Shown here: positions 3,330-48,895 of the stretch, piece by piece | Layout: every line of letters begins with the position of its first letter | How positions within the stretch are numbered: position 1 is the stretch's first letter | Source: an uncultured Candidatus Saccharibacteria bacterium | GTDB taxonomy: Bacteria; Patescibacteriota; Saccharimonadia; CAILAD01; BJGX01 | NCBI GenBank assembly: GCA_964637185.1 | Contig: CAZWVB010000002.1 | Span: forward strand, 1,375-65,374 | Reading direction: 5' to 3' | DNA length: 64,000 nt | Translations under genes and position numbers: made by a program | Notes under the pieces: model-generated | What the model saw: the letters and a program-made list of their open reading frames with translations, nothing else | The model's database searches: none | What the model was told of the DNA's origin: nothing

Positions 3330-3404
3330 AATATTTTCCCTCTCATTGGATAATTGCTGGCGCCTGTCCGCCAAAAACGGACGAGGCTGCCACACATACT
3401 AGTA

Positions 3405-3977: not shown

Positions 3978-4078
3978 AGGTTTTTCACCTCCTATCATTA
4001 GTTATTTTCTTGGGCTTTCTCGAGCCCATCTCGGAGTAGCTGACTGCTCCGGGATGGACCCACGAAGGGTCCAATAAC

Positions 4079-10616: not shown

Positions 10617-13600
10617 CTAGAAAGCTTGCCAATAAAAACTGGTAGTGGATGCCTGAACGGTGTTTAGCTCTATATCAAAACCTGTTGTAGTAACATTGGT
10701 TGCGCGATACTGACCGTTTACAAAATCTTTGGGGGTCAAACTAATATTTGGAGCCGCTGAAAAAGCAGTAGAAAACGAAACATGAGTACTAGTATTACCT
10801 GCTGACACAGCTGCATTCCCTACATTGTTACCACCGAGTTGCAACCTGCCATTGACATTGGTGGTGCCATCAAAGTTGGCGGTGCCAGTGAAGTGCACTA
10901 AGCCGTTGTATGTAGCTAAGGCGTTGTGGGTTTCGGATCCATTGATCGTACTTGTGCCATTGACAGTAAGGCCACCATTTAGCACTACGTCGTCGGTAAT
11001 TGTAATTAGGCCCGGAGTACTAAGGTCAATACGTGTCTGCAAGGCTGCCAGCTGAGCTTGTGCCTCCTTAAGGCCAGCAATCATGAAGGTATTGAGGTAG
11101 CCATAGTTAATTGTTTTAAGCCCAGTGATCGAATCGGTTTGGACAACCTCTGGCAAATATTGTTCTACTTGCTGAGCAGTAAAGCCATATTGAGTTGACG
11201 GCTCCGTCAGCGGGTCTGATCCTGCTGCCACCCAAGCCTCGTAATCACCCTTCCACTGATAAGTTATGGGCTGCAGGGCTCCAAGCTTCGCTAGAGTTCC
11301 TAACACATTCATATCAACAATGTTCGTCTTGAGTGATTCATCCGATGTACAACTCCAGCCAGTACCTGTTACTACTGTACACTGTGTGCCGGCCGAGCCA
11401 TTGAATCGAGTGACATTAGTAGTTGATGTGTCGGTTAGCTCAAGTTTGAAAGCAGGGGAGAGCGTATCAATGCCTACACTGCCGCCCATAATTGCCATGG
11501 TATTACTTTGGGATACTGTACCAACCCCTGCGTTCAAGCCTATTCCTACAGAATTGGAACCACTCACAATAATGTCCCGACCAAAAGCTGTACTTTCGTT
11601 CCCGCTGGCTTCGGTATTGTCGCCCCAAGCAGTTGCATAGTTATTTGAAGCAATTGTAGAAATGCCCCAAGCTGTCGAAGCATTACCAGACGCAGTGGTA
11701 TTAGTACCGAAAGCTGTTGAGTCTGTGCAGGTAGATTGGTTCCCCGCCCCCCATGATGTGGCCCCAAACCCAAATGGACAATTGAGACCACCATTGGTAA
11801 CATTACCCGAACCCCAAGCCGTGTCTAGTAGACCCGATACCTGATTTCCCTGACCAAAAGCGGTGCCAAATCCAGCACTAGCAACATTCGTGTCCCCCCA
11901 CACGGTTGAACGATCACCACTAGCCGTATTGCTACTGCCAAAAGCCAACGAACTATCGCCGCTAGCAGTAGTGTTTAGTCCAAAAGCAGTTGCTCGGCGG
12001 TTATTGGCAAGTGTTCCAGTACCAAAGGCAGTCGATGCACCATAATATGCTTGATTACCAAGGCCCCAAGCCGTCGCCCCCTCACCAAACAGCGCACTGC
12101 TATTTACAATATTGCCACTACCCCACGTGGTATCAGCACTATTTTGAGCTTGATTGTTTCGCCCCCAAACGGTAGAATCTCCCCCGCTAGCTATATTTAA
12201 GTATCCCCAAGTCGTTGCCCTACCAGCGCTCGCTGTAGTTTCCTGACCCCATGCTGTTGAGGTATCACCAGATGCCACTGTACCTAGACCAAAAGCTGTA
12301 GCACGACGGGCATGCGCATAGCTACCACTCCCCCAAGCAGTTGCCGAAGCGCCAAATGGTGTACCCGAGCTGTCGGCTATTGTTCCCACACCCCACGCGA
12401 AGTCATCAGCTGACAACGCTTGAGTGTTAGCGCCAAATGAAACAGCCGCATCTGCACTGGCTACAGTTTGACGACCAATTGCCAACGAATAAGAACCAGA
12501 AGCAGTAGTTTGATACCCAAACGCCGTTGCGCCAGCACCTGTGGCATTTGTATCATCTCCAAATGCAGTTGATCGTGATCCACTTGCGATTGTTGAGTTA
12601 CCAAAAGCCGTGGAGTCGGTACAAAGCGATTGATTACTACTACCCCATGCTGTGGCGCGTTCACCAAATGGACAGCCAGCTCCCGCATTTGTGAGGTTTC
12701 CAACTCCCCAAACAGTATCATTTATAGTGGTGGTGGTGTTCGCCTGTCCAAAAGCAGTCGAGATAGGGCCTGCTGAAGTATTTTGGTAACCCCAGGCTGT
12801 GGAGCGGTCACCACTGGCGGTGTTGGCATTCCCCCATGCTGTAGATTCAGAATTTGTGGCATTGTTATCAAACCCCCACGTAGTAGAACGCATCCCACTA
12901 GCATCAGACGATTCGCCCCATGCAGTACTTTCGTATCCTATTGCGTTACTTCCACCAAAACCAGTTGCGTAACTATTTTGAGCAGTGCCAGCTCCCCAAG
13001 CAGTAGCTGCCTCTGTACCTACAAATGCAATCGCGCCATTGCCCCAAGCAGTAGAGCGACTGCCATTGGCTTGGGTGTTTATACCCCACGCAGTCGATTG
13101 TCCACCATTGGCAATAGTGGTATTGCCCCAAGCTATGTTTTCATTGCCAGATATTGTGCCTGCCTTGGTGTTGTACCCCAGAGCAACTGAGCGAGTGCCG
13201 GCAGCTTGAGTCGCTTCGCCTCCTGCAAATGACTCGTAGCCACTTGCTGCACCAGCATTAAGAGAGAAAGCATATTGTCCGCTAGCAACAGAGGTGTTTG
13301 AGGCAAACGAAGCGTTACCACTAGCAACCGATCCATTACCGCTTGCGGTTGCATATATATTGGTAGCTTGGGTACTTTGACCCCAGGCAAAAGCATCTTG
13401 GGCGCTGGCCAAAGTACTTTGGCCCAAGGCCGTGGACCAGTTTGCACTAGCAGTATTGGTATTACCAAAGGCAATCGATCCTGTGCCACTAGCAGTAGAG
13501 TTATAGCCTGCAAATGAATGTGCCCCACTGGCTATTCCCGAACCGGTGGCCAAACTATAATCCCCACTTGCCGTACCGTTCGCTAACGCCGTAGCCGCCC

Positions 13601-16100
13601 GCCCGCTTGCAGCAGAACTCTCGCCAAACGCAGCTGAATAGAAATTGTTTGCTGTCGTATTTATGCCAAAAGCGACTGAGTTATTACCGCTGCTTTGGTT
13701 AGCTCGTGCGTTATTACCATAGGCAAATGAATAGGTATTGTAAGCTATCCCAGTACCACCAGCAAACGAAGCTGTTCCACTTGCAGCAGCACTATTTGTT
13801 GAAAAAGAACCGTCGCCACTAGCAACAGAGTTATTTGCTGCAAATGAATATTGACCACTCGCTACCGAGCCATTACCACTAGCGGTGGCATAGTTGTTTG
13901 TGGCCTGAGTGTTGACACCCCAGGCAAAAGCATCTTGGGCATTGGCCAATGTACTTTGGCCAAGTGCAGTAGACCATGTCCCACTAGCAGTAGTAGCATT
14001 TCCAAAGGCGATTGATCCGGTGCCACTGGCAGTGCCAGTATAGCCCGCAAAGCCATATGCGCCGCTGGCCAGCCCAGAACCAGTTGAGAGGCTATAATCT
14101 CCACTGGCTGTGCTGGCGCCTAGTGCTGTTGACCCTCGGCCAGATGCAGTAGAGCCTTCGCCAAACACTGCTGAATAAAAGTTGTTAGCTTGGGTATTGA
14201 TACCAAAAGCCACCGAATTATTACCCGATACATTGTTTGCACGAGCGTTCTGGCCAAAGGCAAACGAATAAGCATTGGCAGCTGTACCTGTTCCGCCGGC
14301 AAAAGAAGCGCCGCCGCTGGCGGTGCCCCCTGCAAAAGCCACCGCACTACCTCCATTAGCAACACCGCCAGCTACACTAAAATCATAGTTGGTATCAAAG
14401 TAGGCACGTTGGACACCATTGGTGCGAATTCTGAAATCTTGATTGTTATTAGTGCCAATATAGTCGCCTGCTCCTACTACATTCCCAGTCAGCAACCAGC
14501 CTGGAGTTGACACGGAAAAACATTGGAAATAACTTCCACCATTTTCAGAACATTGGAATGATCCAGCCCCCGAGTCGTAGTAAAAGCGACCTGTACCGGC
14601 GGGTGCCACAGCTATCCCCGTAGTACCATTTACAGTCACGGCACCAGCACCAACATTTAGAAGTGAGCTTGGCGTACTTGTCCCCACCCCGACTCGTTGA
14701 TTTAACGTATCTACATCAAGTACAACAGTAGTGTCATCTGCCTGACGAACTTGAAAAGCGTCAGTAACGTTACTATCCGGGCTTACATATATTGGCCGCT
14801 GGGTAGCACCGCCAACTACTCCAATCTGATACCCACCAGCTATACCAGCACCACTAAACTGAATTGCATACGGATCAATAATGCCGGTAACGTCTAAATC
14901 TCCATTGACACTGAGCGCCTTGCCGCCAACAGGTGCGCCGCCAATACCCACTTCACCGGCTGTATTGATAGTAAGTCGAGTGATCCCTCCTGTTTCGAGT
15001 TCTAAATTATTCCCATCGTTAGTACCAACTACCAAAGTTGCACCTGTGCTATTACCACCATCACATATTATTGTAAGTGATCCTGGACAAGCCGAGTCAA
15101 AATTAATTGCCAGGTTGCCAGCAGCAGTCAATCGGCCTTGGGCATCGACAGTAAATGTGGCCACTTGGGTTGAGGAACCATAACTACCTGCCGTAACAGC
15201 TGTATTATCCAAATTGAGAGTAATATTGTTGGTTGCAGATGCCGTCGAACTAAGACCAACACCACCTAGTACAGAAAGTGTATCACCTTGTGAAATTGTT
15301 TGGCTCGGTCCAATATCGGCTGCCGCGCTAAATAAATTACCTCCGGTTACTATACAGGTTGGACAGCTAAAATCAACCGTATTTATCCCTGTACTAGCCA
15401 CAATCGGGCCAGTACCGGTAAGAGTAACAGCTGGCCCGGTTTGGCCATTGATAGAGGTAATATTCCCACCTCCACCACCAGCAGCTACACATGAAAAACT
15501 ACTACCATTCCAAAATAATGCTTGGCCACCAACACAGGTTGGTGAATTTATGCTAATCGTACCGGTCGTAGTAATTGGTCCACCTTGTAGCCCGTTTCCA
15601 GTGTTAATTTGAGTAACTGATCCAGCTCCGGCAGGTCCCTGTGAACCTTGCGGACCCTGCGCGCCCGTTGTTCCTGGTGATCCGGCAGGCCCAGTCGGTC
15701 CCTGAGGGCCAGGTACGTTAGATGTATTGTTATTGGTGATTTGTTGATTAATTTCTTGGTTGGTAAGCTGAGTCTGGCTTATAAACTGTTGTAATTGGGG
15801 GCTCAGTTGCTCAACCGTAACACTCCCAACTGATAATTTAGCCCCACTGATGGTTCCATTTGGGATGTTATTAATAGTAGTAAACGTACTGGTCTGGCAA
15901 TTGTTCCTAATACCTAAAAAACGCATATACCAAACATCACTACATAAACCGCGCAACAATATAATCACTATTAATAGCAAGAATGCTAGACCTATCAAAA
16001 GCCAAATCAGCCAATGCGACTTTTTGGTGATCTCGTTATATTCAGATTGGTGATTTAAATTACTCGATTGTTGCACGGTCTTCCAAAGCTTATATACCAA
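10617..16100 (-). CDS. Giant (1827 aa) type-II membrane-anchored fibre protein. It carries a collagen-like triple-helix segment, phage-tail-fibre-like SxAxG repeats and a Peptidase S74-type intramolecular chaperone domain.
   Basis: N-terminal cytoplasmic stretch then one TM helix (HWLIWLLIGLAFLLLIVIILL). Gly-X-Y repeats (GPQGPTGPAGSPGTTGAQGPQGSQGPAG). Long arrays of the ~14-aa unit STAWG-N-ASG (as in phage tail fibre repeats). Near the C-terminus, CTSDESLKTNIVDMN…LQPITYQWK matches the S-x4-K…N-I auto-cleaving chaperone motif of endosialidase-type tail spikes. About 130 further residues share a C-terminal module with the next gene. Confidence 0.8.
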   Translation of the reverse strand: MVYKLWKTVQQSSNLNHQSEYNEITKKSHWLIWLLIGLAFLLLIVIILLRGLCSDVWYMRFLGIRNNCQTSTFTTINNIPNGTISGAKLSVGSVTVEQLSPQLQQFISQTQLTNQEINQQITNNNTSNVPGPQGPTGPAGSPGTTGAQGPQGSQGPAGAGSVTQINTGNGLQGGPITTTGTISINSPTCVGGQALFWNGSSFSCVAAGGGGGNITSINGQTGPAVTLTGTGPIVASTGINTVDFSCPTCIVTGGNLFSAAADIGPSQTISQGDTLSVLGGVGLSSTASATNNITLNLDNTAVTAGSYGSSTQVATFTVDAQGRLTAAGNLAINFDSACPGSLTIICDGGNSTGATLVVGTNDGNNLELETGGITRLTINTAGEVGIGGAPVGGKALSVNGDLDVTGIIDPYAIQFSGAGIAGGYQIGVVGGATQRPIYVSPDSNVTDAFQVRQADDTTVVLDVDTLNQRVGVGTSTPSSLLNVGAGAVTVNGTTGIAVAPAGTGRFYYDSGAGSFQCSENGGSYFQCFSVSTPGWLLTGNVVGAGDYIGTNNNQDFRIRTNGVQRAYFDTNYDFSVAGGVANGGSAVAFAGGTASGGASFAGGTGTAANAYSFAFGQNARANNVSGNNSVAFGINTQANNFYSAVFGEGSTASGRGSTALGASTASGDYSLSTGSGLASGAYGFAGYTGTASGTGSIAFGNATTASGTWSTALGQSTLANAQDAFAWGVNTQATNNYATASGNGSVASGQYSFAANNSVASGDGSFSTNSAAASGTASFAGGTGIAYNTYSFAYGNNARANQSSGNNSVAFGINTTANNFYSAAFGESSAASGRAATALANGTASGDYSLATGSGIASGAHSFAGYNSTASGTGSIAFGNTNTASANWSTALGQSTLASAQDAFAWGQSTQATNIYATASGNGSVASGNASFASNTSVASGQYAFSLNAGAASGYESFAGGEATQAAGTRSVALGYNTKAGTISGNENIAWGNTTIANGGQSTAWGINTQANGSRSTAWGNGAIAFVGTEAATAWGAGTAQNSYATGFGGSNAIGYESTAWGESSDASGMRSTTWGFDNNATNSESTAWGNANTASGDRSTAWGYQNTSAGPISTAFGQANTTTTINDTVWGVGNLTNAGAGCPFGERATAWGSSNQSLCTDSTAFGNSTIASGSRSTAFGDDTNATGAGATAFGYQTTASGSYSLAIGRQTVASADAAVSFGANTQALSADDFAWGVGTIADSSGTPFGASATAWGSGSYAHARRATAFGLGTVASGDTSTAWGQETTASAGRATTWGYLNIASGGDSTVWGRNNQAQNSADTTWGSGNIVNSSALFGEGATAWGLGNQAYYGASTAFGTGTLANNRRATAFGLNTTASGDSSLAFGSSNTASGDRSTVWGDTNVASAGFGTAFGQGNQVSGLLDTAWGSGNVTNGGLNCPFGFGATSWGAGNQSTCTDSTAFGTNTTASGNASTAWGISTIASNNYATAWGDNTEASGNESTAFGRDIIVSGSNSVGIGLNAGVGTVSQSNTMAIMGGSVGIDTLSPAFKLELTDTSTTNVTRFNGSAGTQCTVVTGTGWSCTSDESLKTNIVDMNVLGTLAKLGALQPITYQWKGDYEAWVAAGSDPLTEPSTQYGFTAQQVEQYLPEVVQTDSITGLKTINYGYLNTFMIAGLKEAQAQLAALQTRIDLSTPGLITITDDVVLNGGLTVNGTSTINGSETHNALATYNGLVHFTGTANFDGTTNVNGRLQLGGNNVGNAAVSAGNTSTHVSFSTAFSAAPNISLTPKDFVNGQYRATNVTTTGFDIELNTVQASTTSFYWQAF

Positions 16101-16128
16101 GTATAAGCGCTATTGAGCAGTGTTACAA

Positions 16129-18474
16129 CTATTCTTGTGCTTGCCAATCAAACTTGGTGTCAGTAGTCTGAGCTGATTCCAACTCAATAGTAAATCCGCT
16201 GGCCGATTTGGACTTCAGCCAATAGCGTCCGCCGGTATCACTACTCGGGCTAACAACGATATTTGGCGTCTTCGAATACGATGTCGAGAAACTATATCCA
16301 CCGGACTTCTGGCCAGCTGGAATAACAACTGTACCGCGGGTGTTGGCGTTCCCACTCACTATGCCTTTTATTATTATATTGCCACCTATGGTAACATCGC
16401 CGCCAAACTCGACAGCTTTGCTATCGGCGAGTTGTTTGAGCGCATCCATGCTAGTACCAGTAGCTGAGTTTTTTAGTGTGTCTATTTGTTTTTGTTGCTC
16501 TTGAACTGCAGAGACCAGATAGGGGATGAGGCCATCTTTGCTCAGAGTTTTGGTGCCATCGGGCAGTTGCGATACTAGACCTGGCAATACTTTTTCAACT
16601 TCTTGTGCGATGAATCCTGCTACTGCTTGGCCATCCGGTGAAGTTTTCCAGTTGTATGTAACACCTCGAAGCTCCATGATCTTGTCCAGCCCTCCATTGA
16701 TACTTAAGATGTTTTGCTTAAGTTTTTCATCCGATACACAACTAAGCGATCCGAGCCCAGTGTCTACCGTACACGTACCTGAAGTACCAGTAAAATTGGC
16801 TGGTGTATCGTCTGAAGTGTCGACTACACTAAGCCTGTTTGTAGGACTGCCAGCGCCAATGTTGAAATTCCCATCCTTATCAACACGGCTGACTACAGTA
16901 CCAGCCAATCCGCCACCAGTTTGCCATTGAGTAAGATCACCTGTTTGGCCAGTGATGCCCTGTACCACAAGAGGTTTATCAGTAGTTGCTGCGGAGTGTA
17001 CAATCAGTGATGCATTTGAATCATCAACAAAACTGGTTTTTGGGTTGATAGTCAATTTGGTACCCCCTGGTGGCGCGGCTAGACAGAAAAATGTGCCCAG
17101 TACCGAGCTGGGAGTAAGATTGTTTGCACAAGCACCAATCGAGACTTTACCTTCAAAATAATTGTTACTGTTGTAGCCTTCAGATACGAGATTGGCGCTG
17201 CCGACTGATCCACTTTGCTGATACTGGATATCAATACCCACTTGGTGGCTAATGGTGTTTGGCTCATAAAGTGTTGGGAAGCCAAGAAAGGCAAGTGAAG
17301 GGTCCTGGGGATCAACTATGGTATTGCCTGAGTAATAATCTATTACGCCATTGAGTGATCCGCCGTTGTAGGTAATAGGAATAGTCGCGCTGCCAAATGC
17401 GTAGGCTATATCACCAGAGCCAAAATTGGATACTGTATTGAGTTGGGCTGCTTGCATAAATACCGTACCGCTACCAGCATGTGTTACCGCGTTCATTACT
17501 CCGCCATTGAGATAGAAGTCTTTCGAGTTGTCCTTGTCAGTCTGCAGGGCCGAATACCCACCAGCATAAATGTTTTTATTACCACCGGCAACGGTTCTAA
17601 AACCAAGAATGCTCCCTAATATGACTGGAGCATATTGCGGATTGGCCAGCAATTCGTTGGCAGTGCCAACAAAAATGCTTCCTGGATTTGGATTGTTTGT
17701 TGAAATCTGTTGTACGGATAGAATACGTTGGATATCGTCATTGGAGAATAATGGACCCGTATCTAGAATGGACGTATTTGGAGTAGACTGCGCCCCCACC
17801 AACAAATAATTGTCTACCTTTGCTGCACCATTGACCTCGAGACTAAGTGCTGATATCGAAGGCACACTAGTGTTGACCCCCACAAAATTGGTAGCGGTAC
17901 TAACACTCAATACTGGCGCGGCCGAAGCATTCTGCACAGAAAAGGCCGATACTGAGTTGCTACTGTTGCGAAATATCTGATTGGTACCAGTGAAGGCCTG
18001 GAAGTTCTTATTGGTATAGGCGATAAATGGATCGAGCTGGCTTGGCTGCAACACACCACTAATATTGTTAGCTTGGAGGTTGGTAATGCCGCTTCCATTA
18101 CCCTGCAGATTGGCTGCCGTAATCGTACCTGTGGCGGTGATATCGCCGTTTACAGCCAGCACACCCTGTTGTGCTTGAGCCAGGGGCTGATTACCTAGAT
18201 TGAAGCTTACCGGCTTGTAGCGCTCAGCGGGGTTGGCAAACTGGCTTACCTGGCTACGATTGCGCCATATCAAAATTACTGCTGTAGTAAATAGCAGCAG
18301 CAATGCAATAGCCGCAGCTATCCAAAGTGCTTGATAGAATCGATTACGCCGATGCAACTTGGCGATCTCGGCATTTTCAGCCGAAACTGCCGCGTCAGTC
18401 GATTGACCTTGCAGCTGTCCAGAAAAAGTCGCTTGTTCCAACGAAACATTTGGTGTGTTTGTTTCTCCGTCCAC
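16129..18474 (-). CDS. Second (781 aa) type-II membrane-anchored fibre-like protein with a Peptidase S74-type intramolecular chaperone domain.
   Basis: GTG start. TM helix (ALWIAAAIALLLLFTTAVILIW). Motif CVSDEKLKQNILSINGGLDKIMELRGVTYNWK. Its C-terminal ~90 aa (…TPNIVVSP…GFTIELESAQTTDTKFDWQAQE) are shared with the 1827-aa protein (…APNISLTP…GFDIELNTVQASTTSFYWQAF). Only 28 nt separate it from the downstream gene. Confidence 0.75.
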   Translation of the reverse strand: MDGETNTPNVSLEQATFSGQLQGQSTDAAVSAENAEIAKLHRRNRFYQALWIAAAIALLLLFTTAVILIWRNRSQVSQFANPAERYKPVSFNLGNQPLAQAQQGVLAVNGDITATGTITAANLQGNGSGITNLQANNISGVLQPSQLDPFIAYTNKNFQAFTGTNQIFRNSSNSVSAFSVQNASAAPVLSVSTATNFVGVNTSVPSISALSLEVNGAAKVDNYLLVGAQSTPNTSILDTGPLFSNDDIQRILSVQQISTNNPNPGSIFVGTANELLANPQYAPVILGSILGFRTVAGGNKNIYAGGYSALQTDKDNSKDFYLNGGVMNAVTHAGSGTVFMQAAQLNTVSNFGSGDIAYAFGSATIPITYNGGSLNGVIDYYSGNTIVDPQDPSLAFLGFPTLYEPNTISHQVGIDIQYQQSGSVGSANLVSEGYNSNNYFEGKVSIGACANNLTPSSVLGTFFCLAAPPGGTKLTINPKTSFVDDSNASLIVHSAATTDKPLVVQGITGQTGDLTQWQTGGGLAGTVVSRVDKDGNFNIGAGSPTNRLSVVDTSDDTPANFTGTSGTCTVDTGLGSLSCVSDEKLKQNILSINGGLDKIMELRGVTYNWKTSPDGQAVAGFIAQEVEKVLPGLVSQLPDGTKTLSKDGLIPYLVSAVQEQQKQIDTLKNSATGTSMDALKQLADSKAVEFGGDVTIGGNIIIKGIVSGNANTRGTVVIPAGQKSGGYSFSTSYSKTPNIVVSPSSDTGGRYWLKSKSASGFTIELESAQTTDTKFDWQAQE

Positions 18475-18545: not shown

Positions 18546-18800
18546 CTATACATTGGCAAACAAGGTGACTACACCACTACGTACCCGCAATATGCCGCGC
18601 TCGAGATGAAATCGCCTCTTGCCATACGGTGTATCCAGACTGACTGGACCTTGGCTGATGATACTGACAAAGTTGGCATGTTCAGGTAATATATCAAACG
18701 TGCCCTGACTATTGGCTGCAGTCAAACTAAACGCTTCGCCTTCATAAAAAACCTCAAAAGGGGAGTAGAGTTTGACCAAAAAACGCTCAGTGCGATCCAT
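18546..18800 (-). CDS. F1-ATPase epsilon-subunit-like protein. Beta-sandwich domain only, 84 aa.
   Basis: Aligns to the epsilon N-terminal domain (…G.FDILPEHANF…GG.L.V…VT.LA). It follows the beta-like gene in the canonical alpha-gamma-beta-epsilon order. The C-terminal helical hairpin of canonical epsilon is absent. Confidence 0.65.
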   Translation of the reverse strand: MDRTERFLVKLYSPFEVFYEGEAFSLTAANSQGTFDILPEHANFVSIISQGPVSLDTPYGKRRFHLERGILRVRSGVVTLFANV

Positions 18801-18805
18801 ATTAT

Positions 18806-20131
18806 TTACTGTATGGTTAATATTTCCTCGACTGCTGCCAAAGTCTCTTCACGTCCCACGTACTGGCCCTGTTTGCCAGTCAGCGGCTGGGTTACAAACA
18901 GTGGCTGCTGAAATAGCTCAATCAAGCGTTTGGCCTTGCTATAGGCTTGGCGATCTTGTACTGACAATTCGGCTTCACCTATGATCGTGACTATTCCCTT
19001 CAAATCTTGATACTTCTGTAGCACTTTTTGAGCCTCCATAGCCAAGAAGTAGTGCTTCTCGCCTACTATTTCCGGACTTAGCAAAGAGCTACTTGTGTTG
19101 ACCAGATCTACTGCCGGCAGGATGCCTTGCTCCATAATTTCTCGGCTAAGCACAATTACACTGTCCAGTTGCTGGTATATCTCCACCACAGCTGGGTCCG
19201 ATAGATCATCGGCTGGTATATATATCGACTCCACGCTCGTGATAGAACCATTTTCATTCGAGTCAAGTCCTGCTTGAAATCGAGATAGGTCTGTGAACAG
19301 ACTAGGTTGATAGCCACCCTCGCTTAGTCTTTCACCACGCAGCATGGCCAGCTCATTGCCAGCCTGCAAAAATCTGTAGATATTATCAACGAAGAAAAGT
19401 ACATCGGTTTTTTCTTGATCCCGAAAGTGCCTGGCTGAAGCAGCTGCTATCTGGCCAACCAACCAACGACGAACTGCTGTCTCATCCATTTGACCCAGAT
19501 ACATTACTGTTGATTGCATCAACTTGGTTTCTTCAAGGGTCATGTACAGCTCATGTGCCTCTCTTATCCTCTCACCAATACCTGCAAATATCGAAACCCC
19601 TAGCTTGCGTTTGCAAACATTGTGCATCAATTCTGTGGTAAGTACTGTTTTACCAACTCCCGAGCCACCGACTATACCAATCTTGCGACCACGTACAAAT
19701 GGCGCCAAGAAATCAACCACCTTGATACCAGTCTCAAGTAAATCAGCACTAGCGCCATAACCTGATTTACCGGTATGCCGATAGGCTTCCAGCGGAAACA
19801 GTTGTGTTTTGTTATGATCTTCTGTGGACATCAGATTGTTGTGCTGACAATCCCAGACACCACCTAAAGCAGACTTACCGCTGCAAAAACTGATTGTATT
19901 TGTCGATGCCTCGACTACTTCACCTAGACCTATCTCGTCTTGGGTTCCAAGGCTTAGACACGTCACTCGTGTTGAATGCTGCTCAACCACCATAAGTTGT
20001 GTCATGTGCGTGTTCTTGGCAGTCAATAAAGCAAACTGGCTGAGCACAGGCATATTATTACTCCATTCGACCTCAACTAAAATATTATCGATTGCTACCA
20101 CTCTGCCGGTATTCATGATTGATAACTCCAT
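18806..20131 (-). CDS. F1-ATPase beta-subunit-like catalytic P-loop protein. Divergent, 441 aa.
   Basis: GRKIGIVGGSGVGKTVLTTELMHNV (canonical GGAGVGKTV). IFAGIGERIREAHELY (canonical VFAGVGERTREGNDLY). LFFVDNIYRF and GSITSVESIYIPADDLSDPA are also present. The DELSEED region is degenerate (EAELSVQD). Confidence 0.85.
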   Translation of the reverse strand: MELSIMNTGRVVAIDNILVEVEWSNNMPVLSQFALLTAKNTHMTQLMVVEQHSTRVTCLSLGTQDEIGLGEVVEASTNTISFCSGKSALGGVWDCQHNNLMSTEDHNKTQLFPLEAYRHTGKSGYGASADLLETGIKVVDFLAPFVRGRKIGIVGGSGVGKTVLTTELMHNVCKRKLGVSIFAGIGERIREAHELYMTLEETKLMQSTVMYLGQMDETAVRRWLVGQIAAASARHFRDQEKTDVLFFVDNIYRFLQAGNELAMLRGERLSEGGYQPSLFTDLSRFQAGLDSNENGSITSVESIYIPADDLSDPAVVEIYQQLDSVIVLSREIMEQGILPAVDLVNTSSSLLSPEIVGEKHYFLAMEAQKVLQKYQDLKGIVTIIGEAELSVQDRQAYSKAKRLIELFQQPLFVTQPLTGKQGQYVGREETLAAVEEILTIQ

Positions 20132-20946
20132 TGGTAAGCCAATGATTCAACATCTCTCCGCCGGCGCAAATAGACATTGAGCTGTCGTCTCGTTTTTTGA
20201 AGCTCAGCCTTAGCTGATTCACTAGCCCGAGACAAACTGTTGTACCTATACGCCAACTGCGAAAGAGTAGACTCGAGCACTATTTGAGTTACAGCTATCG
20301 AGCTCATAGTGCTTTCTAAATACTCAATCACTTCTTCAAGACTTGGCTCAAAAATGTAATCACTCGCAAACATCAGCTCGCTATCGGTACTGCTTGACTG
20401 TTTCTGCAAGCGAGCTACACTTTCATGTAATTCAAACGCCACAACTTGTTGCTCAGTGACTGATTCAAACCTAGCAAAATATAAGGTAACAGTCTTATAG
20501 CCAGATAGGTAGTTGATGATTGGCACCACATTGACCTTGGATTCCAAGCTTGGTAGATGAAATGACTTGCTGACTTCGACGTTGCGACTTGCCAAAAGCT
20601 GAGCCCCACGAGTGCCGATAGTCACAATGTCCGTAGAACGTGTCTTAATACCTTCTAGCATAGTTTGGATAATCTGCTCATCAAGCCCACTAGCAAAACT
20701 CAAGTCAGAACTGATTAGTACTGCCGTACTCCCCGATTTCGGAATTGTTTTTTTTGCCTTTGTGGGCACATCGATCCTCAACTGATCATACATAGCCCAC
20801 AGCTCATGAAAGAATTCCCTCGCCTGCAACACTCGGTCACGAATTTGGCGGATTTGCAGCGAGCTAATATTCTCATAAGCCTGTACTACCTGAGAAATTG
20901 TGCTTAAATCATTGAGTTGGGTCTGTAAATCTTGCAATCTTGCCAT
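20113..20946 (-). CDS. F1-ATPase gamma-subunit-like protein
   Basis: 277 aa. The N-terminal helix MARLQDLQTQLNDLSTISQVVQAYENISSLQIRQIRDRVLQAREF resembles gamma (…I.SV.NT.KIT.AMEMVAA.K.R…). It sits between the alpha-like and beta-like genes and overlaps the beta-like start by 19 nt. Confidence 0.7.
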   Translation of the reverse strand: MARLQDLQTQLNDLSTISQVVQAYENISSLQIRQIRDRVLQAREFFHELWAMYDQLRIDVPTKAKKTIPKSGSTAVLISSDLSFASGLDEQIIQTMLEGIKTRSTDIVTIGTRGAQLLASRNVEVSKSFHLPSLESKVNVVPIINYLSGYKTVTLYFARFESVTEQQVVAFELHESVARLQKQSSSTDSELMFASDYIFEPSLEEVIEYLESTMSSIAVTQIVLESTLSQLAYRYNSLSRASESAKAELQKTRRQLNVYLRRRRDVESLAYQWSYQS

Positions 20947-20947
20947 G

Positions 20948-22330
20948 TCAAATCTCCGGGTTACTCTTTAGCAAATCTTTGGCTAGTTCGCGATAATCCG
21001 ATTCTTTGGTATCTGGTTTTACCACGTCACCAATTACTGCTTTGAGCCACGATACATTTAGATTATTGGGTTCCTCGCTCAAAAAAATTGTTTCAAGCAT
21101 GACTCTTTGCATAGGCAAGGTATATGTGCCACCAAGGTCTTGTATGAAAAGCTCAAATAGTTTGCGACCTACAGCAAGGTTTTTTTGTGATGCAACTGAA
21201 AGTTTGGTATTAAATCTTGAATATGTCTCCACTTCCGAATATGCTGCGAGTGATTGTAGTATGCGTTCCGACATATTTTGATAGTAGGTGCTCTGCGCAC
21301 GGCCACCAACACGACTCACTGACAAACCTATATTGAGAGCCGGCCTGATACCTTGACGCATGGTCTTAAGGTCAAACACCAATTGACCATCGGCTGTCGA
21401 TATCATGTTGGTTGGGAAATACCCAGTCAAATCATCATTGGGCGTGGTAGCCACTGCAAAGGCAGTCAAACTCTTGCCGGTCTCGGCATTGAGTCCAGCC
21501 CTTTCTAGCAAGCTTGCGTGCACATAGAATAGATCGGCTGGATAACTTTCTCGCCCTGGCTGCATACCAAGTTGTAATGCCATTTCTCGATATACCTTGG
21601 CGTGAGTTGCTAGATCATCATAGACCACCATGACATCATTTTGCTGCCAATAATGTTCAGCCAGTGCACACCCAACAAAAGGCGCTAGGTATTGTAATAC
21701 TATATTGTCTAAGGCGTCGGCCACGACAATAATACTTCGATCCATTACGCCTGCTTGGTACAAACGAAAGGCTAATTTTTCAATATCTTGCTTGCGTTTG
21801 GCAATTTCTACAAATACAGCTATTGAATTGCTATTTTTTAAATGATGTATGGCTGCTTGGCTTAGCATACTTGATTTGCCAGCTTTGGCGTCACCAATCA
21901 CAGCTATCCTCTGGCCTTTGACAACTGGGAAAAGTGAATCGATGATTGTGACACCTGTTTCTAATTGTTGATTGACTAACCCTCGCTTATTGATTGGTAA
22001 CGCCTTGCCAAACACTGATTGCAAGACCAGCTCAGAACCCTTGTCTATTGACTCTTTTTGCAACAGGTCATAAACCTGATGGGTTTTCCCAAGTGTGTCT
22101 TTATTGATCTGCACTTGCAAGCTCCTAAACTGTGGCTTGATATGTTGGCTATCAATTCGTCCATCGGGAGTGAGCGAAAGGGCTTGAACAGTTTGTGCGC
22201 TTGCCTTGTGTACTAGAGCAGCAGCATTATCAGCCTGTATAGTCGCCTGTAAATGTATGCCTTCAATGGGCCCACTGGTCAGTATGTAGTCGTTGCTACT
22301 ATTTACTGATTGCTTTGTGCTCTCCTGCAT
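20948..22330 (-). CDS. F1-ATPase alpha-subunit-like P-loop protein. Divergent, 460 aa.
   Basis: GQRIAVIGDAKAGKSS (canonical GQRELIIGDRQTGKT). YLAPFVGCALAEHYW, VVYDDLATHAKVYREMALQLGMQPGRESYPADLFYVHASLLERAG match the alpha-subunit signature YLAPY.GCA.GE…[41 protein letters not shown]. Confidence 0.85.
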   Translation of the reverse strand: MQESTKQSVNSSNDYILTSGPIEGIHLQATIQADNAAALVHKASAQTVQALSLTPDGRIDSQHIKPQFRSLQVQINKDTLGKTHQVYDLLQKESIDKGSELVLQSVFGKALPINKRGLVNQQLETGVTIIDSLFPVVKGQRIAVIGDAKAGKSSMLSQAAIHHLKNSNSIAVFVEIAKRKQDIEKLAFRLYQAGVMDRSIIVVADALDNIVLQYLAPFVGCALAEHYWQQNDVMVVYDDLATHAKVYREMALQLGMQPGRESYPADLFYVHASLLERAGLNAETGKSLTAFAVATTPNDDLTGYFPTNMISTADGQLVFDLKTMRQGIRPALNIGLSVSRVGGRAQSTYYQNMSERILQSLAAYSEVETYSRFNTKLSVASQKNLAVGRKLFELFIQDLGGTYTLPMQRVMLETIFLSEEPNNLNVSWLKAVIGDVVKPDTKESDYRELAKDLLKSNPEI

Positions 22331-22331
22331 A

Positions 22332-23183
22332 TCAAACTCCTATTATTATGTATACGCCAGCAAAGGCGGCAAAGATTATTATTACTACTGCTAATATCAC
22401 TTGACCTAGACTGCGAAGTACAGCTGGTTTGGCCAGCGGATTGCGGCCTATGGAGCGTATGCTAGAAGTGACGGCCGAAAATAGCACTACCATAGCCGCG
22501 ATTGTCGATATCACTACCACCGCAAACGCCGCAGCGGCACGGATCGGTGTAAGCTTTTTACCAGCCAGGTTTGAACTAAGTGCTTGCAGACCAGTTAGCG
22601 CATTGTTGCCAGATTGGCTACCAGTCGGCTGGTATTGCCCAAGTTGAATATCAGAGTTAATTAGACCAATATCATAGCTGTGATTATCACCTTTGTTATC
22701 TGTTAGCTGACGACTGGTTTTGTTTTCCATATCGCTACTGCTAGACCTAGCAATGCCTACCAAAGTACCACTAGTTGTAGCTTTCATCGCCACCCCATCA
22801 ATAGGTGATAGAGTCAAACTATCACCAGGGCTGATTGGACCATTGATGTTACTTACCAAGATTTTGCTTGGTCCAGAGCTAGTCACCTGTACATTGCTAC
22901 CTGTCGGACTTACTGAGACGACGCCCTGCGTCACAGTACTAGTCACACCTACAATAGGTTGATTATTTTGGAGCGAGGCCGTCTCAACATTGGTCTGGCT
23001 GTTAGTAGCCAAGCTTACAATGGATCCAGCCGATATTGCGACTGAAGATGTATAGCCCTGAGTCACATTAGCAGCTACCGCCGGTACAGCAAAGAACATG
23101 CCTACAGCTACCATGGCACCCAACAACCTTATTCGAAACCAGCAAAACACCTGAGAACATGTGTTCTGCGAAACACTACTCAT
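22332..23183 (-). CDS. Signal-anchored Ser/Thr-rich ectodomain protein. Its C-terminal two-helix hairpin resembles an ATP-synthase c subunit but lacks the conserved carboxylate.
   Basis: N-terminal hydrophobic segment LLGAMVAVGMFFAVPAVAAN. About 190 aa of S/T/N/Q-rich sequence. C-terminal hairpin AAAAFAVVVISTIAAMVVLFSAVTSS-IRSIGRNPLAKPAV-LRSLGQVILAVVIIIFAAFAGVYIIIGV, with a polar loop (RNP) like the c-subunit RQP loop but no Asp/Glu in helix 2. It is immediately upstream of the alpha-like gene. Confidence 0.55.
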   Translation of the reverse strand: MSSVSQNTCSQVFCWFRIRLLGAMVAVGMFFAVPAVAANVTQGYTSSVAISAGSIVSLATNSQTNVETASLQNNQPIVGVTSTVTQGVVSVSPTGSNVQVTSSGPSKILVSNINGPISPGDSLTLSPIDGVAMKATTSGTLVGIARSSSSDMENKTSRQLTDNKGDNHSYDIGLINSDIQLGQYQPTGSQSGNNALTGLQALSSNLAGKKLTPIRAAAAFAVVVISTIAAMVVLFSAVTSSIRSIGRNPLAKPAVLRSLGQVILAVVIIIFAAFAGVYIIIGV

Positions 23184-23232
23184 AGCTCTTATGCTACACT
23201 TTTTGGGCTAACTTTTCCAGTTGGAGTTGGAA

Positions 23233-23853
23233 CTACTTCCTAGTTTTGCCGGCTAGTTTTAGTATCAGCTCAATCAGAACGCCTAGCACACCGCCTAATA
23301 TCAGTAGTACCAATAGTAGCCAGTTCGGTAGCGGGTAACCATAGACTCGTGCTGCAAAATACACTACTAGTCCCATGCCTATGCCAACAACTGCGCCACC
23401 GATCAGTACGGAAGGACGCAGTATTGTTTTTTCGGCAGCATTACTAACTGTTTCTACAACAGGATTGTGAACAACTTTGGAAAAAGCCCTACTGCCAGCT
23501 GGCAACTGTGTTTGTATTTTGCCAAGTTCTTTTTTGTAGACGCGTTTTTGCTCGGCTTTGGTCAAAGGCGTCTTTGGCTTTTTCTCAACTTCCTTAGCTT
23601 TTTCAGACTTCTTTTCTTCGGCTTCTTTGGATTTTTCCTGCTTACGAGCTAGATCAGACTCTTTTTTCTCCAATTCCGCTTTTATCTTGCGTTCAGCAGC
23701 TTCTCCCTTGCGGGCTAGATCAGCTTCGTCACGTTTTTGTTCAGCCTTAGATTTTTCAGCTGATCGATTACGCTCAAGACTTTCGGAGCTACTTTTGGAT
23801 AGCTTAGCCTCAGATTCTTGTCGTTCTACTAATTTCTCTTCATCCGCCGCCAT
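23233..23853 (-). CDS. K/E-rich coiled-coil protein with two C-terminal transmembrane helices.
   Basis: 206 aa. About 110 aa of charged low-complexity sequence (EKKESDLARKQEKSKEAEEKKSEKAKEVEKK), then VLIGGAVVGIGMGLVVYFAARVY and LLLVLLILGGVLGVLIELILKLAGKTRK. The start overlaps the stop of the upstream gene by 1 nt. Confidence 0.5.
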   Translation of the reverse strand: MAADEEKLVERQESEAKLSKSSSESLERNRSAEKSKAEQKRDEADLARKGEAAERKIKAELEKKESDLARKQEKSKEAEEKKSEKAKEVEKKPKTPLTKAEQKRVYKKELGKIQTQLPAGSRAFSKVVHNPVVETVSNAAEKTILRPSVLIGGAVVGIGMGLVVYFAARVYGYPLPNWLLLVLLILGGVLGVLIELILKLAGKTRK

Positions 23854-45976: not shown

Positions 45977-46003
45977 AGCATTACGATTTCTGCCATAATT
46001 TTT

Positions 46004-46747: not shown

Positions 46748-46843
46748 CTGCTTACGCTGTACCAGCCCTGGCTTATCTGTTAGACTAGCGCAAGCGAAAT
46801 CGTTCGCCAAACCCGCAAGTTCACAACCGAAAGAGAGATCATC

Positions 46844-47341: not shown

Positions 47342-47366
47342 GTCGGCTCACAACAGGAGAAACACC

Positions 47367-48266: not shown

Positions 48267-48446
48267 TCTCTGACCAACCTGCGGGTAGGCCGAGCGTCTG
48301 GGATAGCATCCCGGAGGCTCGGCCACCAGCCTGAGTATTCAAATCCGCTGTCCAGCGAATTGAATCTTCAGGTTGAAATAACTATGTTGTAAATACGACG
48401 TCAGCCCCCAGCGGGAGGCGGACGCCTGCTTGCTAGGGGCTGTTGA

Positions 48447-48812: not shown

Positions 48813-48895
48813 GGTCTTCTCCTATTCGATCGAGGTTGCTACCTGGTGTAGCGAACTGCAAGTATGCTAGCATTTAGCAATAATAAATTCAACGA

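What the first reader, a model, noticed from the sequence alone, without database searches (positions are those of the whole stretch)
10617..18474. Two giant type-II-anchored fibre proteins with collagen-like, phage-tail-fibre-like and self-cleaving chaperone (S74-type) modules plus a shared novel C-terminal domain
Both proteins have an N-terminal cytoplasmic tail and a single TM helix, so the long remainder is predicted to lie outside the cell.

The 1827-aa protein contains nine uninterrupted Gly-X-Y triplets, then dozens of 14-aa SxAWG/SxAxG units like phage side-tail-fibre repeats.

Both proteins contain the intramolecular chaperone signature (CTSDESLKTNI… and CVSDEKLKQNI…, with Ser and a Lys five residues later). 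In phage endosialidase/tail-spike proteins this domain catalyses folding of a trimeric beta-helix and then cleaves itself off.

Unlike phage proteins, here the motif is followed by another ~100–130 aa ending in a module conserved between the two genes (…TPNI..P…GF.IEL…T..F.WQA).

These are cell-encoded, membrane-tethered 'tail fibres'. They are not part of a prophage, since no capsid, terminase or integrase genes are present. They lie directly downstream of the F1-like operon and may be its working surface appendages, for example for host or prey attachment.
Basis: partly seen in the sequence, partly recalled or inferred. Interest (0 to 1): 0.75.

Follow-up and report, generated by a model that had tools for sequence, protein, structure and literature searches.

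The report
Membrane-anchored adhesin fibres of a Saccharibacterium
Two neighbouring chromosomal genes of an ultrasmall epibiotic bacterium (Saccharibacteria) encode long, membrane-tethered surface fibres built from phage tail-fibre and adhesin modules, most likely for attaching to a host cell. They always sit beside an unusual second, ATP-synthase-like gene cluster.

Summary
Both ORFs are real and lie in a housekeeping chromosomal context of a Saccharibacterium, not in a prophage.

**What was confirmed**
- Each protein has one N-terminal transmembrane helix.
- Each has a Peptidase_S74 intramolecular-chaperone domain well above Pfam's cut-off, with the Ser-x4-Lys dyad intact.
- The large protein has 10 Gly-X-Y triplets and about 65 repeats of 14 residues.

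**Two labels that were wrong**
- The 14-residue repeats are YadA-head (trimeric-adhesin) repeats, not phage side-tail-fibre repeats.

**What held up or was new**
- The extension after the chaperone domain is a cellular feature. It was absent from 87 of 88 viral ORFs carrying S74.
- It goes with a Cys pair just before the scissile Ser. That pair was found in 35 of 97 genomic ORFs and in none of the 88 viral ones, mostly in Patescibacteria.
- The 781-aa type lies next to the divergent F1-like operon in 12 of 12 informative loci, in two gene orders.

**Best reading:** trimeric, N-terminally anchored adhesin fibres that fold from the C-terminus and probably shed the chaperone-lectin cap. A mechanical link to the F1-like ATPase is not excluded and has not been shown.

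The parts
10617..16100 (-). Fibre gene A: 1827 aa from the first TTG. The start is probably the GTG at 16076, giving 1819 aa.
   Evidence: ORF list and translation. Homologues P0026, P0060 and P0122 align from codon 9.
15945..16019 (-). A: single N-terminal transmembrane segment (aa 28-52), read as a signal-anchor
   Evidence: Kyte-Doolittle 19-residue window up to 3.38, and the only such segment in the protein. Conserved in A-type homologues.
15621..15710 (-). A: collagen-like run of 10 G-X-Y triplets (aa 131-160), preceded by a Gln-rich helical neck
   Evidence: Homologues have 9-22 triplets at the same position. P0162 passes Pfam Collagen.
15090..15332 (-). A: module of about 80 aa (aa 257-337) shared at 55-75% identity with very many fibre-like proteins. 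It is not covered by any Pfam family.
   Evidence: 2,678 proteins hit the N-terminal query, and coverage piles up on aa 257-337. Pfam finds nothing there.
11541..14333 (-). A: shaft of about 65 repeats of 14 residues of the YadA-head type (aa ~590-1520)
   Evidence: Pfam YadA_head, E 1e-20, 74 bits against 25. Autocorrelation peak at lag 14. The DNA copies have diverged, since TRF finds no long array.
10986..11345 (-). A: Peptidase_S74 intramolecular chaperone domain. Catalytic Ser1586 is at 11343-11345 and Lys1591 at 11328-11330. Cys1574 and Cys1584 lie just upstream.
   Evidence: Pfam, 46 bits against 22. Coordinates checked. Cys pair.
10620..10853 (-). A: C-terminal beta-sandwich module of H-type-lectin fold (aa 1750-1827)
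   Evidence: Pfam H_lectin 30.8 bits against 24 when scanned alone. Homologous to the module of B, which was modelled and fold-searched.
16129..18474 (-). Fibre gene B: 781 aa, GTG start
   Evidence: A 100% identical 781-aa protein is in the public collection (P0001).
18265..18336 (-). B: single N-terminal transmembrane segment (aa 47-70) after a 46-aa polar tail ending in RRNR
   Evidence: It is a helix in the AlphaFold2 model, pLDDT 66-79.
17635..18114 (-). B: membrane-proximal ectodomain (aa 121-280), the best conserved part among orthologues
   Evidence: Mean identity to the window protein is 0.66-0.77 per 40-residue block. No family match.
16795..17154 (-). B: most variable stretch (aa 441-560), directly upstream of the chaperone domain. 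It would become the distal tip after cleavage.
   Evidence: Identity 0.45-0.54 with indels. The insertions in the 1068-1079 aa homologues fall around here.
16465..16734 (-). B: Peptidase_S74 intramolecular chaperone domain. Ser581 is at 16732-16734 and Lys586 at 16717-16719. Cys568 and Cys579 lie just upstream.
   Evidence: Pfam 57.2 bits against 22. PDB sequence match to the phage S16 long tail fibre 6f45, E 5e-6. PHROG tail-fibre families, E down to 5e-24.
16132..16368 (-). B: C-terminal beta-sandwich module of H-type-lectin fold (aa 703-781)
18546..23853 (-). Adjacent F1-like ATPase cluster. It is context, and possibly a functional partner. In transcription order the genes are p206, p283, then the alpha-, gamma-, beta- and epsilon-like genes. 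No Fo a, b, c or delta genes are present.
   Evidence: Pfam and NCBIfam. All NCBIfam equivalog cut-offs are missed. p283 has a signal peptide, an ectodomain and 2 TM helices; p206 has a charged coil and 2 TM helices. Adjacent to a B-type fibre in 12 of 12 loci.

Best explanation
The two genes encode homotrimeric surface fibres (adhesins) of a Saccharibacterium, tethered to the cytoplasmic membrane by an N-terminal signal-anchor helix.

**Export and topology (inferred).** The chain is exported N-in, C-out, presumably through Sec.

**Folding (inferred from the family).** Outside the cell, three chains are brought into register at their C-terminal ends. The elements that do this are the trimeric H-lectin-fold module and the S74 intramolecular chaperone, whose helical bundle acts as it does in endosialidase and phage T5 pb1 fibres. 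Folding then proceeds towards the membrane, building the shaft:
- In A, a YadA-head beta-roll of about 65 turns, the 80-aa module, a short collagen triple helix and a coiled-coil neck.
- In B, an unclassified beta-rich ectodomain.

**Cleavage (inferred, about 55:45).** The conserved Ser-Lys dyad then most likely cuts the chain in front of Ser1586 (A) or Ser581 (B). The exposed end would be a disulfide-stapled, highly variable tip that binds the host cell surface. The alternative is that the lectin module stays on as the glycan-binding tip.

**Role (inferred).** Relatives carry 0-2 A-type genes, and these differ in length, which fits a role in host specificity.

**Shown here:** domain identities, single TM segment, conserved dyad, fold of the module, chromosomal context, synteny.

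**Inferred only:** trimer state, topology, cleavage, adhesion.
For: **Domain identities**
- S74 is well above Pfam's cut-off in both proteins.
- The Ser-x4-Lys dyad and the GF(I/T)AQ(E/Q)VE motif are invariant across homologues.
- YadA_head scores 74 bits.
- There are 10 G-X-Y triplets, conserved in position among homologues.

**C-terminal module**
- H_lectin scores 30.8 bits when scanned alone.
- It also resembles the C-terminal domains of trimeric tailspikes and R-pyocin fibres.

**Extracellular location**
- Each protein has one TM segment after a Lys/Arg-bearing N-terminal tail.
- All 16 Cys of A and all 4 of B occur in local pairs 3-17 residues apart.

**Cleavage and a variable tip**
- The stretch just before the chaperone domain is the least conserved part of B, whereas the module is better conserved.
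- A Cys-x10-Cys staple ends two residues before the Ser.

**Cellular rather than phage origin**
- The window carries housekeeping genes.
- Synteny is conserved in species-level relatives.
- The post-chaperone extension and the Cys pair are absent from the 88 viral ORFs.

**Variable copy number**
- L002 has one fibre gene, the window has two, and L013 has three.
Against: - No trimer model could be made. The monomer AlphaFold2 models were poor outside the module, with mean pLDDT 53 and 45.
- There are no expression, localisation or cleavage data.
- The module lies downstream of the cleavage site, so shedding would discard a well conserved domain. The same module ends 40 of 96 large proteins that have no chaperone domain, and there it must stay attached. 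This favours a tip function.
- B's module alone does not reach Pfam's H_lectin cut-off; only 4 of 10 family members match at E<=1. The sugar-binding residues were not examined.
- Topology rests on hydropathy and the positive-inside rule only.
- The supplementary tables searched for the cultured Saccharibacterium Southlakia list no S74 or fibre annotation, so there is no genetic evidence.
Confidence: 0.6

Rival explanations
1. The fibres are the external output, or the cargo, of the neighbouring F1-like ATPase complex. In this reading the alpha3beta3-gamma-epsilon head and its unusual membrane partners (p283, p206) drive movement, tensioning, extrusion or assembly of the B-type fibre. This would resemble the way Mycoplasma mobile couples an F1-like ATPase to giant membrane-anchored legs.
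For: - A B-type fibre gene lies next to this operon in 12 of 12 informative loci (L001, L002, L004-L008, L013, L083, L085-L087). In 9 it follows the epsilon-like gene and in 3 it precedes p283.
- In the window the genes are on the same strand with gaps of 71 and 28 nt.
- The operon is a divergent paralogue. Its beta subunits score 375-414 bits against an atpD cut-off of 463, whereas a canonical atpD in a relative scores 795.
- It has no Fo a, b, c or delta genes. A cultured Saccharibacterium does have a normal atpIBEFHAGDC-type operon.
Against: - All these loci belong to one narrow Saccharibacteria clade. Flanking housekeeping genes (gyrB, gyrA, the DUF8128 ATPase) are syntenic there too, so adjacency may simply be inherited.
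- Most S74 fibre genes in Patescibacteria lie elsewhere.
- No domain in the fibres suggests contact with an ATPase, and their cytoplasmic tails are short and poorly conserved.
- No literature links F1-like ATPases with Patescibacteria.
Confidence: 0.15
2. The H-lectin-fold module is the working, glycan-binding distal tip and stays attached. Either the chaperone domain does not cleave in this subfamily, or the cleaved halves stay associated. Alternatively, the released chaperone-lectin trimer is itself a secreted host-binding factor.
For: - The module is the terminal domain of many large proteins that lack a chaperone domain (40 of 96).
- Its fold matches sugar-binding lectins (HPA, SLL-2, discoidins) and the receptor-binding ends of R-pyocin fibres.
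- It is conserved in all orthologues.
Against: - In every studied S74 protein an intact Ser-Lys dyad leads to cleavage (established knowledge of endosialidase, T5 pb1 and MYRF), and the dyad is invariant here.
- The variable, specificity-like region lies before the chaperone domain rather than in the module.
Confidence: 0.2
3. The genes are remnants of a prophage, tailocin or contractile injection system. That is, they are true tail-fibre genes stranded in the chromosome.
For: PHROG tail-fibre families match B at E down to 5e-24, but only over the chaperone domain. NCBI names a homologue 'tail fiber domain-containing protein'.
Against: - Both proteins have an N-terminal membrane anchor.
- No capsid, portal, tail, sheath or integrase family matches any gene annotated in the 64 kb window. 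One VirD4-like ATPase gives a weak 49-aa terminase-large-subunit hit.
- The position between the F1-like operon and gyrB is fixed in species-level relatives down to 39% identity.
- The family's Cys pair and C-terminal extension are absent from the 88 viral ORFs.
Confidence: 0.03

Closest known systems
Phage tail fibres and tailspikes with a C-terminal intramolecular chaperone (endosialidase of K1F/endoNF, T5 L-shaped fibre pb1, S16 gp37; Pfam PF13884 Peptidase_S74)
   Same: The chaperone domain and its Ser-x4-Lys dyad are the same, as is the GFxAQEV motif. It sits after a repetitive beta-rich shaft. Trimer folding from the C-terminus is presumed to work the same way.
   Different: - These proteins are chromosomal and anchored in the cell membrane through an N-terminal helix, not attached to a virion.
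- The chaperone domain is not terminal. About 110-140 further residues follow, ending in an H-lectin-fold module.
- A Cys pair precedes the scissile Ser. The extension was absent from 87 of 88 viral ORFs, and the Cys pair from all 88.
Trimeric autotransporter adhesins (YadA, Hia, BadA)
   Same: The 14-residue YadA-head repeats form a long repetitive shaft (74 bits). The presumed role as a trimeric adhesin fibre is the same. JGI even names homologues 'trimeric autotransporter adhesin'.
   Different: There is no C-terminal beta-barrel anchor and no outer membrane to hold one. Polarity is reversed, with the anchor at the N-terminus and the free end at the C-terminus. Folding help comes from an S74 domain.
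MYRF (myelin regulatory factor), a membrane protein with an S74-type ICA domain
   Different: In MYRF the anchor is C-terminal to the domain, so cleavage frees the N-terminal part. Here the anchor is N-terminal, so cleavage would free the C-terminal part.
H-type lectins (Helix pomatia agglutinin, SLL-2, discoidin II; Pfam PF09458), and the C-terminal beta-sandwich of tailspikes (Sf6, Pam1, LKA1 gp49) and R-pyocin fibres
   Different: Sequence similarity is marginal, and B's module is below Pfam's cut-off. Sugar binding was not tested. Here the module sits behind a self-cleaving domain.
Bacterial collagen-like surface fibres (Bacillus BclA, Streptococcus Scl1/2)
   Same: A short Gly-X-Y triple-helix segment sits near the anchored end of a trimeric surface filament that carries a globular C-terminal domain.
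   Different: There are only 10 triplets. The anchor is an N-terminal TM helix rather than an exosporium attachment or LPXTG. The rest of the architecture is unrelated.
Mycoplasma F1-like X0 ATPases (gliding MMOB1660/1670; MSC_0618/0619 type), with Gli349-type legs
   Same: The neighbouring operon encodes alpha-, beta-, gamma- and epsilon-like proteins without Fo genes. Its beta subunit scores about as well on the MSC_0618 model (372 bits) as on atpD (375 bits). Large N-terminally anchored surface proteins are encoded next to it.
   Different: No NCBIfam cut-off for those families is reached. The membrane partners are unrelated. No functional coupling has been shown. The fibres share no homology with the Gli proteins.
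The 'tail fibre-like protein' in the pam pilus neighbourhood of CPR bacteria (Troman et al., bioRxiv 2026, doi 10.64898/2026.03.03.709456)
   Same: [quoted passage not shown] This is very probably the same pairing.
   Different: The preprint only mentions the gene and reads the ATPase genes as ordinary ATP synthase. No Pam family was detected in this window beyond a faint PamR hit on the PKD protein. Homology to their protein could not be checked.

Membership tests
Peptidase_S74 / intramolecular chaperone auto-processing domain (PF13884) | Profile match above the curated cut-off | tested here: met
   A scores 46 bits and B 57.2 bits, against 22. PHROG tail-fibre families also match, and PDB 6f45 matches at E 5e-6.
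Peptidase_S74 / intramolecular chaperone auto-processing domain (PF13884) | Catalytic Ser with Lys five residues later | tested here: met
   Ser1586/Lys1591 in A and Ser581/Lys586 in B. Both residues are invariant in the alignment of 10 family members.
Peptidase_S74 / intramolecular chaperone auto-processing domain (PF13884) | Domain forms the C-terminal end of the precursor, as in phage proteins | tested here: not met
   The proteins continue 242 and 201 aa past the Ser. Viral ORFs end after 75-125 aa in 87 of 88 cases.
Peptidase_S74 / intramolecular chaperone auto-processing domain (PF13884) | Trimerisation-dependent autocleavage | not testable with these tools
   This needs protein chemistry or a multimer prediction. 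Only monomer models could be made, and the domain was modelled with low confidence.
Trimeric autotransporter adhesin | YadA-head 14-residue repeats | tested here: met
   PF05658, E 1e-20, 74 bits against 25, five stretches. Periodicity of 14. Applies to protein A only.
Trimeric autotransporter adhesin | C-terminal YadA-type beta-barrel membrane anchor | tested here: not met
   No anchor family appears in the Pfam scans. The C-terminus is an S74 domain plus the lectin-fold module, and the only hydrophobic segment is N-terminal.
H-type lectin domain (PF09458) | Profile match above the curated cut-off | tested here: inconclusive
   A's module alone scores 30.8 bits against 24. In the full-length protein it scores 23.1. 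Four of 10 family members match at E<=1, and B's own score was not listed.
H-type lectin domain (PF09458) | Six-stranded beta-sandwich fold of HPA, SLL-2 and discoidin II | tested here: met
H-type lectin domain (PF09458) | GalNAc/Gal-binding site at the protomer interface | not tested
   No residue-level superposition or trimer model was available.
Collagen triple helix (PF01391) | Uninterrupted Gly-X-Y repeats long enough to match the profile | tested here: inconclusive
   A has 10 triplets and no Pfam hit. Homologue P0162 passes, 28.1 bits against 27.2.
Prophage or tailocin tail fibre | Embedded among phage structural, packaging or integration genes | tested here: not met
   The neighbours are gyrB, gyrA, the F1-like operon, PheST, TrpRS, ArgRS, aldolase and tmRNA.
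Canonical F1Fo ATP synthase (neighbouring operon) | Subunits reach NCBIfam equivalog cut-offs, and Fo a, b, c and delta genes are present | tested here: not met
   - Beta scores 375.5 against 462.85.
- Alpha scores 273.7 against 484.45 on atpA.
- Gamma scores 69.4 against 194.45.
- Epsilon scores 41.6 against 67.25.
- The upstream genes are p283 and p206, which have no Fo family match.

The most novel reading that the evidence does not exclude
The divergent F1-like ATPase, its non-Fo membrane partners (p283, p206), the LPXTG-type PKD surface protein and the B-type fibre together form one envelope machine in Saccharibacteria. In it, ATP hydrolysis is transmitted across the membrane to deploy, tension or move a host-binding fibre. 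This would be a second, independent case, after Mycoplasma mobile gliding, of an F1 rotary ATPase recruited to drive a surface appendage.
Probability: 0.12. Interest if true: 0.9.

Novelty: new variant of a known kind. Interest (0 to 1): 0.55.

Why it matters
Saccharibacteria and other Patescibacteria live attached to host bacteria. How they recognise and hold a host is only partly known; type IV pili and the new Pam pili are the described appendages.

These genes define a further, uncharacterised class of appendage:
- It is a membrane-anchored trimeric fibre that reuses the phage self-cleaving folding chaperone in a cellular setting.
- It has its own signature, a Cys staple before the cut site and a lectin-fold cap after it.
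- That signature is concentrated in Patescibacteria. It also turns up in contigs assigned to the epibiotic predator Micavibrio.

The fibres are plausible host-specificity determinants. They are also a natural test case for what an S74 domain does when it is not at the end of a protein.

Their strict pairing with a second, Fo-less F1-like ATPase points to an unexplored envelope system in a phylum where most envelope biology is unknown.

Tried and rejected
- **Exact look-up of the 781-aa protein:** nothing was on record, although an identical protein surfaced in the homology search.
- **Word-indexed search with the 79-aa module profile:** only one protein was found. The exhaustive HMM search was needed to show how common the module is.
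- **Sequence search of the module against PDB:** nothing significant. The H-lectin SLL-2 appeared only at E 1.6.
- **AlphaFold2 of the C-terminal 243 aa and of full-length B:** only the module, the TM helix and part of a beta-rich region were usable. The chaperone domain and the ectodomain could not be interpreted, so no fold is assigned to B's ectodomain.
- **The afdb50 fold library:** not available.
- **p283 as an ATP-synthase c subunit:** the invariant SSIRSIGRNP loop between p283's two C-terminal helices looked like a c subunit to me. Neither Pfam at E<=10 nor a PDB profile search supports this. The idea is dropped to an unverified note.
- **Promoter and terminator scans:** results were at chance level, so the operon structure is not resolved.
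- **Pam pilus families:** looked for in neighbouring genes. Only a faint PamR hit on the PKD protein was found.
- **Supplementary tables of the Southlakia Tn-seq paper:** they hold no S74, fibre or lectin annotation, so there are no essentiality data for this family.
- **Prophage reading:** rejected on context and synteny.

Full report

Yes. The minus strand carries two adjacent ORFs: 16129-18474 (781 aa, called B here) and 10617-16100 (1827 aa, called A).

- **Anchor.** Each protein has one strongly hydrophobic 19-residue window near the N-terminus and none elsewhere. In A it is aa ~28-52 and in B ~47-70. A polar tail with Lys/Arg precedes it.
- **Collagen-like run.** A has 10 uninterrupted Gly-X-Y triplets at aa 131-160.
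- **Repeats.** Between about aa 590 and 1520, A has a clear 14-residue periodicity. Identity at lag 14 is 0.265, with harmonics at 7, 21 and 28. The DNA copies have diverged, so this is not an assembly artefact.
- **Chaperone domain.** Both proteins match Pfam Peptidase_S74 far above the gathering score. Profile position 1 lies on Ser1586 (A) and Ser581 (B), and Lys is five residues later.
- **Shared C-terminus.** The two C-terminal regions align at E 1e-29.
- **Start codon.** A's true start is probably the GTG at 16076, where homologues begin.

**2. Organism and context.**

A 100% identical B protein comes from a JGI metagenome. A 39%-identical homologue is annotated by NCBI as a tail fiber domain-containing protein of a Candidatus Saccharibacteria bacterium. 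Most loci recovered from species-representative genomes are also titled Saccharibacteria.

The window is ordinary chromosome. It carries gyrB and gyrA directly downstream, plus PheST, TrpRS, ArgRS, an AddA-type helicase, aldolase, glycosyltransferases, ComM and a tmRNA. No neighbouring gene matches a capsid, portal or integrase family, apart from one weak 49-aa terminase-large-subunit hit on the VirD4-like ATPase. The only tail-family hits are PHROG tail-fibre matches to the chaperone domain of B. The prophage reading is rejected.

**3. What the modules are.**

- *The 14-residue units.* They match YadA_head, the left-handed beta-roll repeat of trimeric autotransporter adhesins (E 1e-20, 74 bits against 25). 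They match no phage-fibre repeat family.
- *The shared C-terminal module is not novel.*
  - A's module scanned alone passes Pfam H_lectin, 30.8 bits against 24.
  - An AlphaFold2 model of B's module is confident, pLDDT 77-91, and is a six-stranded sandwich.
  - It also resembles the C-terminal domains of the Pam1, LKA1 and Sf6 tailspikes and of R-pyocin fibres.
  - An exhaustive profile search finds it in 2,566 representative clusters, 493 of them at E<=1e-10.
  - Among the 96 large proteins in the top hits, the module lies within 10 residues of the C-terminus in 60. Fifty-six have a chaperone domain 17-173 residues upstream, 47 have an N-terminal hydrophobic segment, and 18 have at least 7 G-X-Y triplets.
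  - The architecture therefore recurs widely.

A further module of about 80 residues in A (aa 257-337) is shared at 55-75% identity with very many fibre-like proteins; 2,678 proteins matched the N-terminal query. One of them is a Comamonas tail fibre protein with a Phage Tail Collar domain. This module is not in Pfam.

Within the window, only A and B carry the C-terminal module.

**4. What is distinctive.**

In 80 viral loci, 87 of 88 S74 ORFs end 75-125 residues after the Ser, and none matches the module. In 80 loci from species-representative genomes the tail length is bimodal, with a second mode at 200-225 residues.

These proteins also carry a Cys-x(8-10)-Cys motif that ends two residues before the scissile Ser (QCTV..G.GWSC[ST]|SDE.LK). 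It occurs in 35 of 97 genomic S74 ORFs and in 0 of 88 viral ones. ORFs with the Cys pair almost always have the long tail. Their contigs are mostly Saccharibacteria, Paceibacterota, Minisyncoccia and Nomurabacteria, plus two Micavibrio contigs.

All Cys residues in A (16) and B (4) fall in local pairs, which fits an extracytoplasmic, disulfide-stapled protein.

**5. Family and variability.**

B has only about a dozen full-length homologues among 5.8 billion sequences. All share the same plan: tail, TM helix, conserved proximal ectodomain, variable region, chaperone domain, module. Along B, conservation is highest at aa 121-280 and lowest at aa 441-560, directly before the chaperone domain. The large insertions of the 1068-1079 aa homologues also fall around there.

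A-type proteins share the N-terminus (TM helix, LRGLC[ST]DVWY, a Gln-rich neck, collagen run) and the C-terminus, but have very different shafts of 921 to more than 1800 aa. Copy number also varies. L002 has a single fibre gene, the window has two, and L013 has three in tandem, one of which ends at the chaperone domain.

**6. The neighbouring F1-like operon.**

Upstream on the same strand, in transcription order, lie:
- a DUF8128/VirD4-like ATPase;
- a PKD/DUF11 protein with an LPRTG sorting signal;
- p206, a charged coil with two TM helices;
- p283, with a signal peptide, an ectodomain and two TM helices;
- alpha-, gamma-, beta- and epsilon-like genes.

Every subunit misses its NCBIfam equivalog cut-off; beta scores 375 against 463. 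The beta subunit scores equally on the Mycoplasma MSC_0618 F1-like model. A canonical atpD in a related metagenome-assembled genome scores 795. The cultured Saccharibacterium Southlakia has a normal atpI-a-c-b-delta-alpha operon. This cluster is therefore a second, Fo-less paralogue.

A B-type fibre gene is adjacent in all 12 informative loci that carry this operon. In nine it follows the epsilon-like gene, and in three (L004, L005, L086) it precedes p283. Contigs with canonical ATP synthase operons found in the same scan have no fibre gene nearby.

The caveat is that these loci form one narrow clade in which gyrB and gyrA are syntenic too, and most S74 fibre genes in Patescibacteria lie elsewhere.

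A 2026 preprint on the Pam pilus of Ca. [quoted passage not shown] I found no paper that links F1-like ATPases with Patescibacteria or that describes this fibre architecture.

**7. Most likely mechanism.**

I read A and B as homotrimeric adhesin fibres anchored by an N-terminal signal-anchor helix.
- After export, the C-terminal lectin-fold module and the S74 domain bring three chains into register.
- They then template folding of the shaft back towards the membrane, as established for endosialidase and T5 pb1.
- The invariant dyad then probably cuts before the Ser and sheds the chaperone-lectin cap. This would expose the Cys-stapled, variable region as the receptor-binding tip.

Two observations favour shedding: variability lies before the chaperone domain, and the module is comparatively conserved. 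One observation favours a lasting tip function: the same module terminates many proteins that have no chaperone domain. I put cleavage with shedding at about 55:45.

Trimer state, topology, cleavage and adhesion are inferences. The domain identities, the dyad, the fold and the synteny are shown.

**8. Verdict.**

The genes are a new variant of known kinds: S74-assisted trimeric fibres and YadA-type adhesins. They are not a new category, and the gene pairing has already been noticed in passing in one preprint.

Interest is moderate. It rests on three things: the cellular, anchored, non-terminal use of the S74 chaperone; the subfamily's concentration in epibiotic ultrasmall bacteria; and the unexplained strict pairing with a Fo-less F1-like ATPase.

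Noticed in passing
window 18546-23853 (-): This is a divergent F1-like ATPase cluster with alpha-, gamma-, beta- and epsilon-like genes. All are below NCBIfam equivalog cut-offs, and there are no Fo a, b, c or delta genes. Two unusual membrane proteins precede it. p283 has a signal peptide, an ectodomain and two TM helices joined by an invariant SSIRSIGRNP loop. p206 has a Lys/Glu-rich coil and two TM helices. The loop reminded me of the c-subunit hairpin, but Pfam and PDB profile searches gave no support.
   Followed up: partly
window 30802-33531 (-): The phenylalanyl-tRNA synthetase beta chain (909 aa) carries an NlpC/P60 (and Peptidase_C92-like) cell-wall hydrolase domain at aa ~447-570. 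The domain sits between the B3_4 and B5 domains. This is an unusual fusion.
   Followed up: no
window 23853-26210 (-): A 785-aa surface protein has an N-terminal TM or signal segment, PKD and DUF11-type repeats, and a C-terminal LPRTG motif followed by a hydrophobic stretch and a charged tail, which looks like a sortase signal. It gives a faint hit to the CPR pilus protein PamR. It is conserved directly upstream of the F1-like cluster in relatives.
   Followed up: partly
window 26280-28784 (-): An 834-aa DUF8128 ATPase has an N-terminal TM helix and VirD4/TraD/HerA-like P-loop matches. It matches PHROG 5156 (function unknown) very strongly, E 2e-83. It is 60-90% identical in relatives and always heads the cluster.
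   Followed up: no
L003-L082 (genome loci), e.g. L018 and L065: The S74 subfamily with a Cys pair before the scissile Ser and a long tail after the chaperone domain is concentrated in Patescibacteria contigs. It also appears in two contigs assigned to Micavibrio, an epibiotic predator, and in a few proteobacterial metagenome-assembled genomes. This could reflect a shared lifestyle, gene transfer or mis-binning.
   Followed up: partly
window 15090-15332 (-), protein A aa 257-337: A module of about 80 residues (…TAGSYGSSTQVATFTVDAQGRLTAAGN…) is shared at 55-75% identity with very many fibre-like proteins; 2,678 proteins matched the N-terminal query. It is often in tandem copies and occurs in a Comamonas tail fibre protein. 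No Pfam family covers it.
   Followed up: partly
L013:3585-11887: A related Saccharibacteria contig has three fibre genes in tandem between the F1-like operon and gyrB. One is B-type. Two are A-type: one ends at the chaperone domain and the other carries the lectin-fold module.
   Followed up: yes
window 3405-4666 (-) and 1233-3395 (-): Downstream of gyrA lie two small secreted Asn/Thr/Gly-rich repeat proteins (197 and 195 aa; the latter has an LPRTG motif) and a 720-aa protein with TM segments at both ends. They have no family matches but are conserved at 44-65% identity in the same position in L002.
   Followed up: no
window 46000-50000: G+C rises to 0.55-0.57 against about 0.46 elsewhere, and long ORFs overlap on both strands. 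No rRNA or other Rfam family lies there. It may be acquired DNA.
   Followed up: no
window 50505-50885 (-): A complete tmRNA gene (Rfam RF00023, 115.5 bits).
   Followed up: no
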